This document shows, in pieces, positions 4,998 through 8,795 of a stretch of DNA of 30,679 nucleotides. The notes under the pieces are model-generated. The model made no database searches, was not told the origin of the DNA, and was given only the letters and a program-made list of their open reading frames with translations. Every line of letters begins with the position of its first letter. The stretch's first letter is position 1. Origin of the DNA: a virus (lineage: Duplodnaviria > Heunggongvirae > Uroviricota > Caudoviricetes); the IMG/VR virus record IMGVR_UViG_2802429237_000002, positions 1 to 30,679 of that record; one strand, given 5' to 3'. The position numbers were made by a program, and so were the translations under genes.

Positions 4998-5414
4998 TTA
5001 TTTGAAAACTTCTATGAAATCAAGAACTGATGATATTTCGTGGTTGAATGATTTTCTTTTATATCTTTCTATCGCAGAATCTACCTGGTGTTTATAGTCA
5101 TCGTCGTTGGAGTATTTAACGAAGCATTCTATTGTCTCAGGCGTTACAGCTATAAGGCTCCACCAACCTTCATCAGATTGATATTCAAATCCCATGCTTT
5201 CAAGCCATCCAGCATATTTCCCTCCAGCATCTTGCCAGTGTGTCTTTTCTGCAAGGAAGCTGTTAACCGTCATATGTGCATCAAGGCATTTATCCAACTG
5301 TTTACCATTAAGTAGCCATGCGCTGACAGTTGCACATCCCAAATCAACCGATTTAGTAGAGATATTGAATTGGTCGTAATTATCTGGATTAACCAGAATA
5401 TCTGTAATTTTCAT
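4998..5414 (-). CDS. Hypothetical protein (138 aa), orphan in the early-left accessory slot
   Basis: ATG at 5414 (MKITDILVNPDNYDQF...) preceded by GGAGG RBS; net acidic and Trp-rich; no family recognised; directly downstream of an intrinsic terminator. Confidence 0.6.
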   Translation of the reverse strand: MKITDILVNPDNYDQFNISTKSVDLGCATVSAWLLNGKQLDKCLDAHMTVNSFLAEKTHWQDAGGKYAGWLESMGFEYQSDEGWWSLIAVTPETIECFVKYSNDDDYKHQVDSAIERYKRKSFNHEISSVLDFIEVFK

Positions 5415-5426
5415 AATTCCTCCGTC

Positions 5427-5453
5427 AAAAAAAACGCCCTCACATTGGAGGGC
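5427..5453 (-). terminator. Rho-independent terminator (tL-type) inside the leftward early operon
   Basis: Minus strand reads GCCCUC-CAAUGU-GAGGGC followed by G and eight U (plus-strand A-run 5427-5434, stem arms 5436-5441 and 5448-5453). Confidence 0.6.
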
Positions 5454-5589
5454 AAAGAAGATTTCCAATAATCAGAACAAGTCGGCTCCTGTTTAGTTAC
5501 GAGCGACATTGCTCCGTGTATTCACTCGTTGGAATGAATACACAGTGCAGTGTTTATTCTGTTGTTTATGCCAAAAAAAAAGGCCACCA

Positions 5590-5790
5590 TCAGGCAGCCT
5601 TGTTATTCTGTTTACCAAGCTCTCTGGCAATCATTGCCGTAGTTCGTATTGCCCATTTATCGACATATTTCCCATCCTCCATTACAGGAAACATTTCTTC
5701 AGGCTTAACCATGCATTCCGATTGCAGCTTGCATCCATTGCATCGCTTGAATTGTCCACACCATTGATTCTTATCAATAGTCGTAGTCAT
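5590..5790 (-). CDS. Hypothetical small Cys-rich protein (66 aa; possible zinc-binding)
   Basis: Four Cys in CGQFKRCNGCKLQSEC; ATG overlaps the 3' end of the upstream 28-codon ORF. Confidence 0.5.
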   Translation of the reverse strand: MTTTIDKNQWCGQFKRCNGCKLQSECMVKPEEMFPVMEDGKYVDKWAIRTTAMIARELGKQNNKAA

Positions 5791-5860
5791 ACGGATAGTC
5801 CTGGTATTGTTCCATCACATCCTGCGGATGCTCTTCGAACTCTTCAAATTCTTCTTCCAT
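5774..5860 (-). CDS. Putative highly acidic micro-ORF (28 aa)
   Basis: Hand-translated MEEEFEEFEEHPQDVMEQYQDYPYDYDY; GAGGTGA RBS that incorporates the TGA stop of N; overlaps the next gene's start by 17 nt. Not in track (too short). Confidence 0.3.
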   Translation of the reverse strand: MEEEFEEFEEHPQDVMEQYQDYPYDYDY

Positions 5861-5868
5861 ATCTCACC

Positions 5869-6168
5869 TCAAATAAGTGGTTTGCTGCCTAATTTCATTT
5901 TCTGGCGACCGACACAAGTCACACCCATTTCACTGCGTGGCTTGCTGTAGTAAATACGGTTCTGTTTACGCTCGACTTCATCTGCCTTCTTGCAGAGAAG
6001 GCTGCCAAGTGATGCTGCTTTGTCTGCTCTGACGCAACCAGAGAGCTTTAGCGCAATCTTCCGCGCCAGTCGCTGTTCTTTCATTGCTTGTTCACGTTGA
6101 GCCTGTCTGCGTGCTCTGCGGCGATTTCTGGCGTTATCGTCAGCCAGATATGTAATGACTACTGTCAT
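5869..6168 (-). CDS. N: N-type transcription antiterminator
   Basis: Arginine-rich motif NARNRRRARRQAQREQ near the N-terminus; C-terminal two-thirds resembles phage 21 N as recalled; GGAGG RBS; located between nutL/pL and the early-left genes. Confidence 0.75.
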   Translation of the reverse strand: MTVVITYLADDNARNRRRARRQAQREQAMKEQRLARKIALKLSGCVRADKAASLGSLLCKKADEVERKQNRIYYSKPRSEMGVTCVGRQKMKLGSKPLI

Positions 6169-6283
6169 GTTGACCTCCGATGATTGACTTTAGCGGTGAC
6201 GTGACGGGGGGGAGGGAGGTTAACTCCCTGATGCTGTCGCGCTGCTGCACTTCACATCACCCCAAAGCCAACTACTCTTTGGT

Positions 6284-6324
6284 TCCCGCATTTCGGCGGG
6301 ACAATCCCATCAATGTTAAAGAGC
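6284..6324 (-). promoter_or_regulatory. nutL: boxA (GCTCTTTAACA) plus boxB hairpin (UCCCGC-CGAAAU-GCGGGA)
   Basis: On the minus strand boxA (plus 6314-6324) is followed 12 nt later by the hairpin (plus 6284-6301); the same boxB occurs in nutR. Confidence 0.6.
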
Positions 6325-6371
6325 CTGCCAATCTGTTCCGTTTGGCTACCAGCGTCCTGCTGATGGCTTAA

Positions 6372-6454
6372 ATTTAAGATTTCTTTAATTAATGATCAAG
6401 GGTATTTTTGAAGAAAACTTAAATTTTATTGTGGCGCTTAAGTTTTGCTTTGAT
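6372..6454 (-). promoter_or_regulatory. OL operator cluster and pL promoter region
   Basis: Three 18-bp pseudo-palindromes matching the OR operators: ATTTAAGATTTCTTTAAT (6372-6389), 6407-6424 and 6437-6454; candidate -35 TTGATC on the minus strand at 6394-6399. Confidence 0.5.
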
Positions 6455-6460
6455 TTTTAA

Positions 6461-6489
6461 AGGAAAGAAAAAAGGGGCGAATGCCCCTT
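6461..6489 (-). terminator. Putative terminator at the 3' end of the repressor gene
   Basis: 7-bp stem AAGGGGC/GCCCCTT (6472-6478 and 6483-6489) with a 4-nt loop, followed on the minus strand by a U-rich tract; overlaps the repressor stop codon. Confidence 0.45.
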
Positions 6490-7138
6490 ATGGAAGGTTT
6501 GCTATTTTTGCATCGACAACTACACCGATGATTTTGCAGTTCCCGTTGATCTCAATCATCGGATATTGTGGGTTAAGTGGTTTTAGAAACTTTCTGCCTG
6601 CATCAATAACTAACTTCTTGAAAGTTGCCTCGTTTTCTCCTTCGAGCTTTGCCACTACAAGCTTCCCGTTACGAGGTTCTACTTCAGGATCGACGAGTAT
6701 TATCATTCCTTCGGGGATGCTGAGACCGGCTGGAGCCGTCATCGAATCACCCTTTACGTCCAGCCAAAACGAATCTTCTGAACAATCTACGGTTGTATCG
6801 TACCAGTTATCTATTGCACGCTTATGATATGGCTCTACAGCTTCCATCCAACATCCTGCGCTTACCCAACTAATTAGAGGATACGAACCTCTTGGATCAT
6901 GCCTGCTGTGATAGGCAATGTTTGAAAGACTATCTTCTCCTTTCAACAAGTAATCAGGGGAGCACTGCAAAGCCTTGGCTAAGGCCAATAGGTTTTCGCC
7001 ATTGGGCTCAGTTTCAGAACGCTCCCATTGGGAAATAGCAACATTAGACACGCCAACCATCTTGCCAAGGGCAGCCTGCCTAATTTTGAGTTCTTTTCTG
7101 CGAGCGCGAATACGCTCACCCATCAGTTGTGTATTCAT
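6488..7138 (-). CDS. cI: Phage repressor, CI/C2 type (HTH plus LexA-like S24 autopeptidase domain)
   Basis: 216 aa; N-terminal HTH (QAALGKMVGVSNVAISQWERSE), Ser-Lys dyad context (GDSMTAP ... KL); matches P22 c2 repressor nearly residue-for-residue as recalled. Confidence 0.92.
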   Translation of the reverse strand: MNTQLMGERIRARRKELKIRQAALGKMVGVSNVAISQWERSETEPNGENLLALAKALQCSPDYLLKGEDSLSNIAYHSRHDPRGSYPLISWVSAGCWMEAVEPYHKRAIDNWYDTTVDCSEDSFWLDVKGDSMTAPAGLSIPEGMIILVDPEVEPRNGKLVVAKLEGENEATFKKLVIDAGRKFLKPLNPQYPMIEINGNCKIIGVVVDAKIANLP

Positions 7139-7204
7139 AGTTAAGACATCTTAAATAAACTTGACTTAAGATTCCTTTGATAGATAATTTAAGTGTTCTT
7201 TAAT
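7139..7204. promoter_or_regulatory. OR operators (OR3-OR2-OR1) with pR (and divergent pRM)
   Basis: 18-bp operators AGTTAAGACATCTTAAAT (7139-7156), ACTTAAGATTCCTTTGAT (7164-7181), ATTTAAGTGTTCTTTAAT (7187-7204); pR -35 TTGACT (7161-7166) and -10 GATAAT (7183-7188), 16-bp spacer. Confidence 0.7.
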
Positions 7205-7218
7205 TTCGGAGCGAGTCT

Positions 7219-7404
7219 ATGTACAAGAAAGATGTTATCGACCACTTCGGAACCCAGCGTGCGGTAGCTAAAGCGTTAGGCATTAGCGATGCAGCAGTCT
7301 CTCAGTGGAAGGAAGTCATCCCAGAGAAAGACGCCTATCGACTGGAAGTCGTTACAGCTGGCGCCCTGAAGTATCAAGAAAGTGCTTATCGCAAAGCGGC
7401 ATAA
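7219..7404 (+). CDS. cro: Cro repressor
   Basis: 61 aa, HTH (QRAVAKALGISDAAVSQW); matches P22 Cro as recalled; immediately downstream of pR. Confidence 0.9.
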   Translation: MYKKDVIDHFGTQRAVAKALGISDAAVSQWKEVIPEKDAYRLEVVTAGALKYQESAYRKAA

Positions 7405-7410
7405 GCAAAT

Positions 7411-7454
7411 TGCTCTTTAACAGTCATGGTCCTCATTCCCGCCGAAATGCGGGA
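7411..7454 (+). promoter_or_regulatory. nutR: boxA (TGCTCTTTAACAG) plus boxB hairpin identical to nutL
   Basis: boxA at 7411-7423, boxB UCCCGC-CGAAAU-GCGGGA at 7437-7454, between cro and the cII-like gene. Confidence 0.65.
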
Positions 7455-7512
7455 ATACAACGCGCATCAGTTGGTGCGTATAACTTCTTATTTGTTAAGG
7501 AAATACTTACAT

Positions 7513-7791
7513 ATGCAACTTACAAGTACTCGCAAGAAAGCGAATGCAATTACAAGCAACATCCTAAATCGAATTGCTGTACGTGGTCAGCGAAAGGTTG
7601 CCGACGCGTTAGGGATTAATGAATCGCAAATTTCGCGATGGAAAGACAGTTTTATCCCAAAGATGGCCATGCTTCTGGCTGTGCTGGAGTGGGGTGTTGA
7701 AGACGAGGAATTGGCGGAACTGGCAAAGAAAGTAGCCAAGGTGCTGACAAAAGAAAAGCCTCAAGACTGCTGCAACAGTTTTGAGGCCTGA
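7513..7791 (+). CDS. cII: CII-like transcriptional activator (P22 c1 equivalent)
   Basis: From the internal ATG at 7513 (MQLTSTRKKANAITSNILNRIAVRGQRKVADALGINESQISRWK...); aligns with lambda CII HTH (KSQISRWKRDWIPK...LLAVLEWGV) as recalled. Confidence 0.8.
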   Translation: MQLTSTRKKANAITSNILNRIAVRGQRKVADALGINESQISRWKDSFIPKMAMLLAVLEWGVEDEELAELAKKVAKVLTKEKPQDCCNSFEA

Positions 7792-7825
7792 TGTAGAAAG
7801 ACTGGATCAATCCACAGGAGTAATT

Positions 7826-7987
7826 ATGACAAAACGTCGTAAGAAATACCAGGAAAAAGAAGAGATTCGACACCCTGATTCACCTGAGGGATTAGTGGTT
7901 GCCGCAGCAAATAACAGGGCGTTCGCAGAGCGCCTTGTTGGTGTTTACAGACTAGCCAAAGCAGGAGTGAAACATGGGCGTCGTTAA
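7826..7987 (+). CDS. Hypothetical small basic protein (53 aa)
   Basis: ATG at 7826 preceded by AGGAG RBS; overlaps the start of the replication gene by 14 nt. Confidence 0.4.
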   Translation: MTKRRKKYQEKEEIRHPDSPEGLVVAAANNRAFAERLVGVYRLAKAGVKHGRR

Positions 7988-8795
7988 GTTAGCTGATTAC
8001 AGGCCTCAACTGGAGATCGTGGAGCATCGCGTGGCAGATACCGAAGATGGTTTCATGCGCGTTGCTAACGAGATTACCGACAGTCTGCTGATGGCTGATT
8101 TAACCGTCCGGCAGTTGAAGGTGATGCTCGCTATCATGCGCAAGACATACGGATTCAATAAGCCGATGGATCGACTCACAAACACGCAGATAGCAGCCAT
8201 GACAGGTATTCATCACACTCATGTTTGCGCTGCCAAGCGCCAGCTTATTGAGCGTAAATTCCTCATTGCTGATGGCGTGAAAATCGGAGTGAACAAGGTG
8301 GTTTCTCAGTGGATTAGCCAGGACAGCTTAACATTAGCTAAAACAGCTAATAAAACATTAGCCAAGTCGGCTAATGGGTATAAGCCAAGTCAGCTAAACA
8401 CAAAAGACAATATACAAAAGACAATAAATACAAATACCCCCTTACCCCCTAACGGGGGCGGCGATGGGCAGGTTAAACCTGAACGTCGCAAGGCAGAACG
8501 AATCGACTACGAATCCTTCCTGAACGCCTACAACACCGAAGTCGGTGACAGACTGCCGCACGCTGTTGCGGTCAACGAGAAACGCAAACGCCGCCTGAAG
8601 AAAATCATCCCGCAACTGAAAACGCCAAACGTAGACGGTTTCAGAGCGTATGTCAGGGCGTTTGTGCATCAGGCCAAGCCGTTTTACTTCGGAGACAACG
8701 ACACGGGCTGGACGGCCGATTTTGATTACCTGCTGAGGGAAGACTCGTTAACGGGAGTTCGGGAAGGGAAGTTTGCAGACAGGGGGATTGCATGA
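7974..8795 (+). CDS. Replication initiation protein (lambda O / P22 gp18-like)
   Basis: AGGAG RBS; N-terminal DNA-binding region, iteron-containing linker, C-terminal domain; stop overlaps the helicase start (ATGA). Confidence 0.8.
8313..8440. repeat. Putative origin of replication: iterons followed by an AT-rich tract, inside the initiator gene
   Basis: Reiterated TTAGCYAA / CAGCTAA-type motifs from about 8313 to 8399, then an AT-rich segment with ACAAAAGACAATA twice (8400-8437). Confidence 0.45.

What the first reader, a model, noticed from the sequence alone, without database searches (positions are those of the whole stretch)
5869..6324. N antiterminator with a distinct arginine-rich motif and matching identical boxB hairpins at nutL and nutR
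The N protein has a phage-21-like C-terminal body (as recalled) but an N-terminal motif NARNRRRARRQAQREQ that matches neither the lambda, P22 nor phage 21 motifs as I remember them. Both nut sites (nutL boxB at 6284-6301 on the minus strand, nutR boxB at 7437-7454) carry the same hairpin UCCCGC-CGAAAU-GCGGGA, a GAAA-containing loop on a 6-bp stem, each 12-13 nt downstream of a canonical boxA. This looks like a co-evolved peptide-RNA specificity pair and possibly a mosaic N gene.
Basis: partly seen in the sequence, partly recalled or inferred. Interest (0 to 1): 0.5.

Follow-up and report, generated by a model that had tools for sequence, protein, structure and literature searches.

The report
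HK620-type N antiterminator and nut sites
This is a genuine phage N antiterminator gene with its two matching RNA hairpin targets, but the same protein motif and hairpin pair is already annotated in phage HK620 and is common in E. coli prophages, so it is an ordinary though biochemically unstudied member of a well-known system.

Summary
N lies at 5869-6168 (- strand, 99 aa). The 18-nt hairpin UCCCGC-CGAAAU-GCGGGA occurs exactly twice, at 6284-6301 (-) and 7437-7454 (+), each 12-14 nt after a consensus boxA.

The interpretation also holds. Against phage 21, the flanks and N codons 34-99 are 86-98% identical. boxB is 39% identical and codons 1-33 are 46% identical, so N is mosaic. In 15 reference phages the arginine-rich motif (ARM) class and the boxB class pair one-to-one, whatever C-terminal body N carries.

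It is not new. HK620's 2001 record annotates identical nutL and nutR sites beside an N with the identical ARM. CUS-3 has the same whole N. The module is in 29 phage records, 406-509 of 5426 complete E. coli genomes and at least 120 IMG/VR contigs, around at least nine immunity-cassette sizes.

The ARM differs from the lambda, P22, phage 21 and HK97/H-19B classes. I found no paper that tests it.

The one mildly interesting point is that this boxB equals P22's nutR boxB minus one loop base. That suggests a true GAAA tetraloop closed by a C.U mismatch.

Verdict: real, correctly read, already catalogued. Interest is low.

The parts
6364..6399 (-). pL promoter: -35 TTGATC at 6399-6394, -10 TAAATT at 6376-6371, transcript start A at 6364 (ATCAGCAGG...)
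   Evidence: Placed by gap-free alignment to the annotated pL start of phage 21 (OL657228) and read from the sequence. The consensus scan did not pick it up. Inference by homology.
6314..6325 (-). nutL boxA, GGCUCUUUAACA
   Evidence: Identical to the annotated boxA-L of phage 21 and lies inside the annotated nutL of HK620.
6284..6301 (-). nutL boxB hairpin, UCCCGC-CGAAAU-GCGGGA
   Evidence: Invariant in 79 protein-selected loci.
6183..6272 (-). Long imperfect hairpin in the N leader. Its base, with outer pairs reaching 6173, partly covers the N Shine-Dalgarno. Candidate counterpart of the RNase III-processed hairpin of the lambda N leader.
   Evidence: z = -2.3. Conserved with some compensatory changes in phage 21-type and HK620-type leaders. 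The function is inferred from my own knowledge of lambda.
5869..6168 (-). N antiterminator gene, 99 aa
6085..6144 (-). Arginine-rich motif (ARM), residues 9-28, ADDNARNRRRARRQAQREQA. Predicted boxB-binding helix.
   Evidence: Always linked to this boxB.
5869..6069 (-). Phage 21-type body of N (codons 34-99), including the RNAP-binding C-terminus ...RIYYSKPRSEMGVTCVGRQKMKLGSKPLI. The mosaic junction lies at about codon 33/34.
   Evidence: 92.5-98.1% nucleotide identity to phage 21, against 46% for codons 1-33; matches lambda N residues 74-110 in 6GOV.
7161..7188 (+). pR promoter, TTGACT-16-GATAAT
   Evidence: 10 of 12 consensus matches. Lies upstream of cro.
7411..7422 (+). nutR boxA, UGCUCUUUAACA, 6 nt after the cro stop codon
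7436..7455 (+). nutR boxB hairpin: the same 18-mer at 7437-7454 plus one extra U-A pair
   Evidence: The seventh pair is not conserved in all relatives.
5580..5601 (-). Intrinsic-terminator-like hairpin with a T run in the pL operon, at the end of ral. A second lies at 5435-5454. Likely targets of N-dependent read-through.
   Evidence: Consensus match only; the role is inferred.

Best explanation
This is the early antitermination module of a P22-like (Lederbergvirus) E. coli phage or prophage. It belongs to the specificity class first sequenced in phage HK620. Transcripts from pL and pR each contain a nut site made of a consensus boxA, a 12-14-nt spacer and the boxB hairpin UCCCGC-CGAAAU-GCGGGA. 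N is the first gene of the pL transcript. Its N-terminal ARM (DDNARNRRRARRQAQREQ) binds boxB on the nascent RNA. boxA recruits NusB/NusE. The middle of N binds NusA. The phage 21/lambda-like C-terminus (RIYYSKPRSEMGVTCVGRQK...PLI) binds RNA polymerase. The modified polymerase then reads through the downstream terminators (tR1, tL1 and others). The ARM and the two boxB copies are inherited together as one specificity unit. Recombination at the conserved boxA/pL and cro-end/boxA sequences, and inside N at about codons 33 and 64, shuffles this unit against different immunity cassettes and different N C-terminal bodies. Shown here: the anatomy, homology, mosaic junctions, ARM-boxB co-occurrence and conservation. 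Inferred: binding, Nus dependence, read-through, and orthogonality to other classes.
For: Anatomy and chance. Family membership: PHROG 271 at E 1.5e-35; the C-terminus aligns to lambda N in the 6GOV antitermination complex at E 2.9e-5; neighbours are ral, a C2-type repressor 94% identical to P22 C2, P22-type Cro and cII. Identity with known records: HK620 N residues 1-64 and its annotated nutL and nutR carry the same ARM and boxB; CUS-3 N has the same ARM, boxB and phage 21-type body. Mosaicism against phage 21: 86% (pL-boxA), 39% (boxB), 46% (codons 1-33), 92-98% (codons 34-99). One-to-one pairing of ARM class and boxB class across lambda, Sf6, Sf101, P22, SH2026Stx1, phage 21, mEp235, mEpX1, PA28, VT1-Sakai, HK629, HK620, CUS-3 and N7, despite shuffled C-terminal bodies. 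Co-occurrence at scale: (59 of 63 loci have an exact nutR copy; 3 have variants, including a compensatory G-C to A-U change and a U-A to U-G change). Conservation: 2 variable sites in the 41 nt from boxA through boxB, against 16 in the 37 nt upstream. Divergent relatives keep the ARM core (A[RK]NRRR[AE][RK]R) and the boxB core GCCGAAAUGC: Pantoea piersonii L220, L219 and L015. Domain roles of N (ARM-boxB, centre-NusA, C-terminus-RNAP): PMC3526286.
Against: No binding or antitermination data exist for this class in anything I could search. Pfam N_peptide (PF25694) scores 17.8 bits, below its 27.9-bit cut-off, and NCBIfam has no match. Most loci sampled are close relatives, so boxB invariance partly reflects recent common ancestry. 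boxB-anchored sampling is circular for boxB itself, although the protein-selected set is not. The ARM core resembles lambda and P22, and boxB resembles P22 nutR (13 of 18 identical). The specificity may therefore overlap with those classes rather than be fully distinct.
Confidence: 0.9

Rival explanations
1. The system is a normal N/nut module, but it is not a separate specificity. The HK620-type ARM and boxB would be functionally interchangeable with the P22 and/or lambda pair. On this view the differences are neutral drift within one GNRA-recognising class rather than a co-evolved orthogonal pair.
For: ARM core NARNRRRARR against P22 NAKTRRHERR and lambda DAQTRRRERR. The variant L015 ARM, TAKNRRRERRAA, is closer still to lambda yet keeps this boxB. 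boxB is identical to P22 nutR boxB at 13 of 18 positions and differs mainly by lacking one loop C. The loop contains GAAA, as lambda's does. From memory (Cocozaki et al. 2008, cited in PMC8022706; not readable here), the boxB requirements of P22 and lambda N overlap.
Against: In every genome examined, the ARM class and the boxB class change together at both nut sites and are never mixed. That pattern is what selection for matched partners predicts. The window keeps P22's repressor and Cro (94% identity for the repressor) but has neither P22's boxBs nor P22's ARM.
Confidence: 0.25
2. The two hairpins are not N targets. They could instead be terminators, RNase III sites or a DNA-level palindrome bound by some other protein, and their association with N would be simple linkage.
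For: Only weak support. The hairpins are GC-rich palindromes flanking the immunity region. In 60-66-nt context folds they do not stand out from shuffled sequence (z -0.6 and -1.1).
Against: No T run follows either hairpin, and the terminator scan did not call them. Both lie at the canonical boxA + 12-14 nt position on the transcribed strand of pL and pR. They occupy exactly the place of the annotated phage 21 nutL and nutR stem-loops. They stay paired with the ARM across at least nine immunity-cassette sizes. HK620's authors annotated them as nut sites.
Confidence: 0.03

Closest known systems
Phage HK620 N with its annotated putative nutL and nutR (NC_002730 / AF335538, published 2001)
   Same: Identical ARM: residues 1-64 are 93.8% identical and the ARM itself is identical. 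The boxA-spacer-boxB of nutL is identical. nutR boxB and spacer are identical; the first boxA base differs, C versus U.
   Different: The last ~35 residues of HK620 N are of the P22/H-19B kind (...CSGSICLPNVAIYAAGYRKSKQLTAR), not the phage 21/lambda kind. The immunity region is different (434/L-like cI plus hkaS). The nut spacing is about 1.7 kb, against 1.15 kb here.
Phage CUS-3 N (CP000711, E. coli K1 strain RS218), and also N7, IME10, Gally and 611R6
   Same: The same combination as the window: HK620-type ARM and boxB with a phage 21-type body, 94-98% nucleotide identity across N. P22-C2-type repressor, P22-type cro, ral.
   Different: CUS-3 has a ~200-bp insertion between the leader hairpin and N. 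N7 has an insertion in the 3' end of N. The window has a private replacement at the apex of the leader hairpin.
Phage 21 N and its boxB (a classical, structurally studied class; OL657228)
   Same: pL, boxA, leader architecture, N residues 34-99 (95.5%) and the cro-end/boxA-R are the same. boxB is also a 6-7-bp stem with a 6-nt loop at the same position.
   Different: ARM is GTAKSRYKARRAELIAERR and the boxB loop is CUAACC on CUCAAC/GUUGAG or CACCU/GGGUG stems. Only 7 of 18 boxB bases and 46% of the ARM codon bases are shared.
P22 gp24 and its nut sites (NC_002371)
   Same: N-terminus MTV(V)ITY. ARM core NA+xRRxxRR. Consensus boxA. P22 nutR boxB ACCGCCGACAACGCGGU matches 13 of 18 bases, with the same CCGC/GCGG stem and a pyrimidine-pyrimidine pair of positions flanking the G-A-rich loop. 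The C2 repressor is 94% identical.
   Different: P22's loops are the pentaloop GACAA. P22 nutL boxB (GCGCUGACAAAGCGC) has a different stem. ARM is GNAKTRRHERRRKLAIER. The middle and C-terminal parts of the protein are different.
Lambda N and its boxB (NC_001416; PDB 6GOV)
   Same: Overall mechanism and layout. ARM core xAxxRRRxRR. A G-A-rich loop. The C-terminal RNAP-binding motif is 60% identical.
   Different: boxB is GCCCU-GAAGA/GAAAA-AGGGC, with a 5-bp stem, a pentaloop and a closing U-A pair. Trp18 has no aromatic counterpart here. boxA is CGCUCUUA with a shorter spacer. The central region is different.
HK97 / H-19B / 933W-type N (the other experimentally studied class)
   Same: The same kind of system. 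Its C-terminus resembles that of HK620 N.
   Different: ARM is GNSRSRRRERLKAKALANG, unrelated in detail (my recalled sequence is 98.4% identical to HK97 N). H-19B N is studied in PMC3526286.

Membership tests
Lambdoid N / nut processive antitermination system | Small basic protein with an N-terminal arginine-rich motif | tested here: met
   Six Arg within NRRRARRQAQR (residues 15-25), seven within residues 14-25. It aligns with the ARMs of lambda, P22 and phage 21.
Lambdoid N / nut processive antitermination system | Sequence homology to known N proteins | tested here: met
   PHROG 271 at E 1.5e-35. 95.5% identity to phage 21 N over residues 34-99. Lambda N in 6GOV at E 2.9e-5. Caveats: Pfam PF25694 scores 17.8 bits, below its 27.9-bit cut-off, and NCBIfam has no hit.
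Lambdoid N / nut processive antitermination system | nut sites (boxA, spacer, boxB hairpin) on the transcribed strand just downstream of both pL and pR | tested here: met
Lambdoid N / nut processive antitermination system | N is the first gene of the pL operon, next to the immunity region | tested here: met
   Gene order is ral - N - nutL - pL - repressor - pR - cro - nutR - cII.
Lambdoid N / nut processive antitermination system | N binds boxB RNA and, with NusA/B/E/G, suppresses downstream terminators | not testable with these tools
   Needs binding and reporter assays. Terminator-like sites downstream were found only by a consensus scan.
HK620-type N/nut specificity class | ARM ...DDNARNRRRARRQAQREQ... 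together with boxB UCCCGCCGAAAUGCGGGA at both nut sites | tested here: met
   Identical to HK620 and CUS-3.
Phage 21-type specificity class | ARM GTAKSRYKARRAELIAERR with boxB loop CUAACC | tested here: not met
   boxB 7 of 18 identical; ARM codons 46% identical. Only the body of N (codons 34-99) is of the phage 21 type.
P22-type specificity class | ARM GNAKTRRHERRRKLAIER with boxB loop GACAA | tested here: not met
   boxB is 10 of 18 identical to P22 nutL and 13 of 18 to P22 nutR, and the loop lacks the C.
Lambda-type specificity class | ARM MDAQTRRRERRAEKQAQW with boxB GCCCUGA(A/G)AAAGGGC | tested here: not met
   (boxB 10 of 18 identical; no Trp equivalent).

The most novel reading that the evidence does not exclude
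The HK620-type boxB may be a natural N target whose loop is a true GNRA tetraloop (GAAA) sitting on a C.U mismatch. In effect it is P22's nutR boxB with the extruded loop base deleted. It would be read by an ARM with no aromatic stacking residue. If so, this class would work without the flipped-out loop nucleotide that lambda and P22 present. It could be orthogonal to the lambda, P22, phage 21 and H-19B pairs, which would give a further ready-made peptide-RNA tethering pair and a natural test of what the extruded base contributes, for example to NusA-dependent complex assembly.
Probability: 0.35. Interest if true: 0.4.

Novelty: already known. Interest (0 to 1): 0.2.

Why it matters
For this window it matters little: it is a correctly recognised but standard early-regulation module of a P22-like coliphage. 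More generally, the comparison shows that the ARM plus the two boxB copies behave as one inherited unit. That unit is shuffled against immunity cassettes and N C-terminal bodies, which is a textbook example of lambdoid mosaicism. It also shows that a very common class, present in roughly 8-9% of complete E. coli genomes, has apparently never been tested biochemically. Testing it would be cheap. It could add an orthogonal N-peptide/boxB pair for RNA tethering and show whether a plain GNRA tetraloop can serve as a boxB.

Tried and rejected
- Rfam at a permissive threshold over 5400-8000 gave only two sub-threshold chance hits and no nut/boxB family.
- Pfam N_peptide scored below its cut-off, and NCBIfam had no hit.
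- Literature searches: 'CUS-3'+boxB and 'HK620'+boxB returned only the epsilon34 genome paper, which makes the same kind of argument for another phage but does not describe this pair. 'HK620'+nutL returned nothing. The literal peptide and RNA strings returned nothing.
- The Cocozaki 2008 P22 boxB paper is not held. The HK620 and CUS-3 genome papers were not found by the searches and I did not try to fetch them, so what their authors wrote about N and nut beyond the GenBank annotation is unknown to me.
- The genome-contig scan used a fixed 18-nt spacing and one genome per species. It returned only 7 loci. Three of these, labelled Mucilaginibacter, Dehalococcoidia and actinobacterium, have no boxA and look like chance matches.
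- I considered whether H-19B N, which has been characterised experimentally and is named in the HK620 annotation, carries this ARM. It does not.
- I considered terminator and DNA-palindrome readings of the hairpins and rejected them: there is no T run, and the position and strand are those of nut sites.
- I did not run structure prediction. N is short and, from my own knowledge, natively disordered, and the tools cannot model the RNA complex.

Full report
**1. What is there**

The window is a P22-like (Lederbergvirus) coliphage or prophage. Its closest relatives are IME10 and HZ41, at about 96-97% identity over 59-62% of the first 25 kb.

Around the finding the gene order on the sequence is: ral (5590-5790, -), N (5869-6168, -), nutL, pL, a LexA-type repressor (6488-7138, -), pR, cro (7219-7404, +), nutR, cII (7513-7791, +). 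The repressor is 94% identical to P22 C2. Cro is of the P22 type (Pfam P22_Cro, E 8.7e-28).

N is 99 aa and starts MTVVITYLADDNARNRRRARRQAQREQ..., with a GGAGG ribosome-binding site upstream.

The 18-mer TCCCGCCGAAATGCGGGA occurs exactly twice, at 6284-6301 on the - strand and 7437-7454 on the + strand. Each copy is on the transcribed strand. With up to three mismatches allowed there are still only these two copies, against 0.04 expected by chance.

Each copy folds as a 6-bp stem with the loop CGAAAU. In nutR an extra U-A pair gives 7 bp.

boxA is GGCUCUUUAACA at 6325-6314, 12 nt before the nutL boxB. It is UGCUCUUUAACA at 7411-7422, 13-14 nt before the nutR boxB.

pR is TTGACT-16-GATAAT at 7161-7188. 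I placed pL at 6364-6399 by gap-free alignment to the annotated pL start of phage 21.

**2. It is an N protein, and it is mosaic**

N matches PHROG 271, 'anti-termination protein N-like', at E 1.5e-35. Residues 62-99 align to the C-terminal, polymerase-binding part of lambda N in the antitermination-complex structure 6GOV, at E 2.9e-5. Pfam's N_peptide model scores below its cut-off, 17.8 against 27.9 bits, and NCBIfam has nothing.

I compared the window with the annotated phage 21 record segment by segment:

| Segment | Identity to phage 21 |
|---|---|
| Terminator-pL-boxA | 86% |
| boxB | 39% (7 of 18) |
| Leader | 66% |
| N codons 1-33 | 46% |
| N codons 34-64 | 92.5% |
| N codons 65-99 | 98% |

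So boxB and the ARM-coding part of N have been exchanged as a block relative to phage 21, inside otherwise near-identical DNA. The same applies on the right side. The cro end and boxA-R are shared with phage 21 and P22, and the sequence diverges at boxB.

**3. The ARM and the boxB travel together**

I took N and the nut sites from annotated records and tabulated them:

| ARM | boxB | Phages |
|---|---|---|
| Lambda (MDAQTRRRERRAEKQAQW) | GCCCUGAAGAAGGGC | lambda, Sf6, Sf101 |
| P22 (GNAKTRRHERRRKLAIER) | GCGCUGACAAAGCGC | P22, SH2026Stx1 |
| Phage 21 (GTAKSRYKARRAELIAERR) | CUCAACCUAACCGUUGAG | phage 21, mEp235, mEpX1, PA28, VT1-Sakai, HK629 |
| This window (DDNARNRRRARRQAQREQ) | UCCCGCCGAAAUGCGGGA | HK620, CUS-3, N7, the window |

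Within each class the C-terminal body of N varies. Bodies ending like phage 21/lambda, like P22/H-19B, like Sf6, and a fourth kind ('KDSNPLGNKIHAVQKIKLYSK') all occur.

Of 207 boxB copies in those loci, 100 are followed by an N with this ARM, 93 by cII (the nutR position), 11 lie at a contig edge and 3 are in other contexts.

In a sample chosen by protein similarity rather than by boxB, 79 of 80 loci carry the exact boxB upstream of N. The exception is a rearranged locus that has lost the whole upstream region.

Of 63 loci with enough upstream sequence, 59 have an exact nutR copy. Three have variants and one has an interrupted nutR. The variants include U-A to U-G at the stem base. One has a compensatory G-C to A-U change at the second pair from the loop, together with a C.C mismatch at the third pair.

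The distance between the two boxB copies falls into at least nine size classes, from 1.15 to 3.0 kb. One locus has the lambda-type pL/OL sequence next to this nutL. The same nut pair therefore brackets many different immunity cassettes.

In the protein-selected set, the 41 nt from boxA through boxB have 2 variable positions. The 37 nt upstream have 16.

More distant relatives keep the ARM core A(R/K)NRRR(A/E)(R/K)R and the boxB core GCCGAAAUGC, while the rest of the ARM, the lower stem and the protein body change. Examples are a Pantoea piersonii prophage and two other contigs.

All of this is what a matched peptide-RNA pair under joint selection looks like. It remains comparative evidence, not a binding measurement.

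**4. It is not new**

HK620 N has the identical ARM; residues 1-64 are 93.8% identical. The HK620 record, whose genome was published in 2001, annotates 'nutL; putative N-utilization leftward' and 'nutR'. Both cover the same boxA-spacer-boxB sequences as in the window.

CUS-3 carries the same full-length combination as the window and annotates it as N.

The nutL-ARM segment is present in 29 phage records. These include P22-like phages (HK620, CUS-3, N7, IME10, Gally, HZ41, JEP4, HF4s, ECP1), the Lambdavirus HK630, HK140, mEpX2, mEp213 and several Stx-converting phages. It is also in 406-509 of 5426 complete E. coli genomes.

The other experimentally studied class, HK97/H-19B/933W, has a different ARM, GNSRSRRRERLKAK.

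I found no paper in the searchable library that mentions this ARM or boxB, or that discusses HK620 or CUS-3 nut sites. The nearest is the epsilon34 genome paper, which argues in the same way that a divergent N-terminus implies a new boxB specificity (PMC2629481). A phage L paper uses identical boxBs plus interchangeability as evidence for shared specificity (PMC8022706).

I could not read the original HK620 and CUS-3 papers or the Cocozaki 2008 papers.

**5. How it most likely works**

The mechanism is the standard one: the ARM binds boxB, the centre of N binds NusA, and the C-terminus binds RNA polymerase. Together with NusB/E on boxA and NusG, this makes the polymerase resistant to terminators (as summarised in PMC3526286). 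Terminator-like sites lie downstream in the pL operon at 5580-5601 and 5435-5454.

Two details are worth recording.

First, the ARM core is closer to lambda and P22 than to phage 21. The boxB is identical at 13 of 18 positions to P22's nutR boxB, ACCGCCGACAACGCGGU. The main differences are the absence of the loop C and a C-to-U change at the 3' loop-flanking position. From my own knowledge of the NMR structures, the lambda and P22 pentaloops mimic a GNRA tetraloop by flipping one base out. On that basis this loop may be a plain GAAA tetraloop closed by a C.U mismatch. That is an inference from sequence only.

Second, because of these resemblances the specificity may overlap with P22 or lambda rather than being fully orthogonal. 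The strict co-variation in nature argues for matched partners, but it does not measure cross-reactivity.

**6. Verdict**

Its novelty was overestimated. It is the HK620/CUS-3-type N-nut module, which is already annotated and very widespread. What remains open is only its biochemistry. Interest is low (0.2). The most novel reading not excluded is a natural tetraloop boxB with an orthogonal ARM, which I rate at probability about 0.35 and interest about 0.4 if true.

Noticed in passing
window 6183-6272 (- strand), with outer pairs to 6173: The N leader folds into a long imperfect hairpin with a basal stem of about 21 bp. Its base, together with the 3 nt just 3' of boxB, partly pairs with the N Shine-Dalgarno (z = -2.3). 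The stem is conserved with some compensatory changes in phage 21-type and HK620-type leaders (7 of 36 pairs with double changes). Its position recalls the RNase III-processed hairpin that controls lambda N translation (my own knowledge).
   Followed up: partly
window 6203-6226: The apex of that leader hairpin carries a private replacement, GGGAGUUAACCUCCCUCCCCCCC on the transcript, which is itself a small hairpin plus a C run. CUS-3, HK620 and N7 have GAAGAUAAGCACC here. A few E. coli chromosomes share the window's version at 98-99% identity.
   Followed up: no
window 6488-7455 compared with P22 (L130): The window has P22's immunity proteins (C2 94% identical, P22-type Cro) but neither P22's boxBs nor P22's gp24 ARM. 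Immunity specificity and antitermination specificity are therefore uncoupled here.
   Followed up: yes
L001 (CUS-3) 1870-2100; L003 (N7) about 1570-1760: CUS-3 has a ~200-bp insertion between the leader hairpin and the N start. N7 has a ~170-bp insertion that replaces the last codons of N, giving a different C-terminal end.
   Followed up: no
L193 960-1090: A contig with lambda-type pL/OL sequence (TATCTCTGGCGGTGTTGACAT...) directly upstream of this HK620-type nutL. Its boxA has a point change, GGCACTTTAACA. It shows the module combined with lambda-like immunity.
   Followed up: no
L096 (upstream of its nutL, opposite strand): nutR is interrupted inside boxB: after TTCCCGCCG the sequence continues as unrelated DNA. 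This is probably an insertion or rearrangement in a decaying prophage.
   Followed up: no
L219 and L222: Genuine enterobacterial-type nut sites and N genes lie on contigs labelled as a Bacillales MAG and a Segatella copri MAG. These are most likely mis-binned phage contigs.
   Followed up: no
L213 (Hafnia phage Meifeng) 844-1113 and upstream: A further N relative, ARM MNAKQRCKLRRLERRSEERN with a phage 21-like middle and a lambda-like end. After a consensus boxA it has yet another hairpin, GUAUGCC-GAGA-GGUGUAC. This is possibly another specificity class.
   Followed up: no
L211 (PA28) nutL: PA28 combines the HK620-type boxA spacer (ACATTGATGG) with a phage 21-type boxB. That places a recombination junction right at the 5' edge of boxB.
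   Followed up: no
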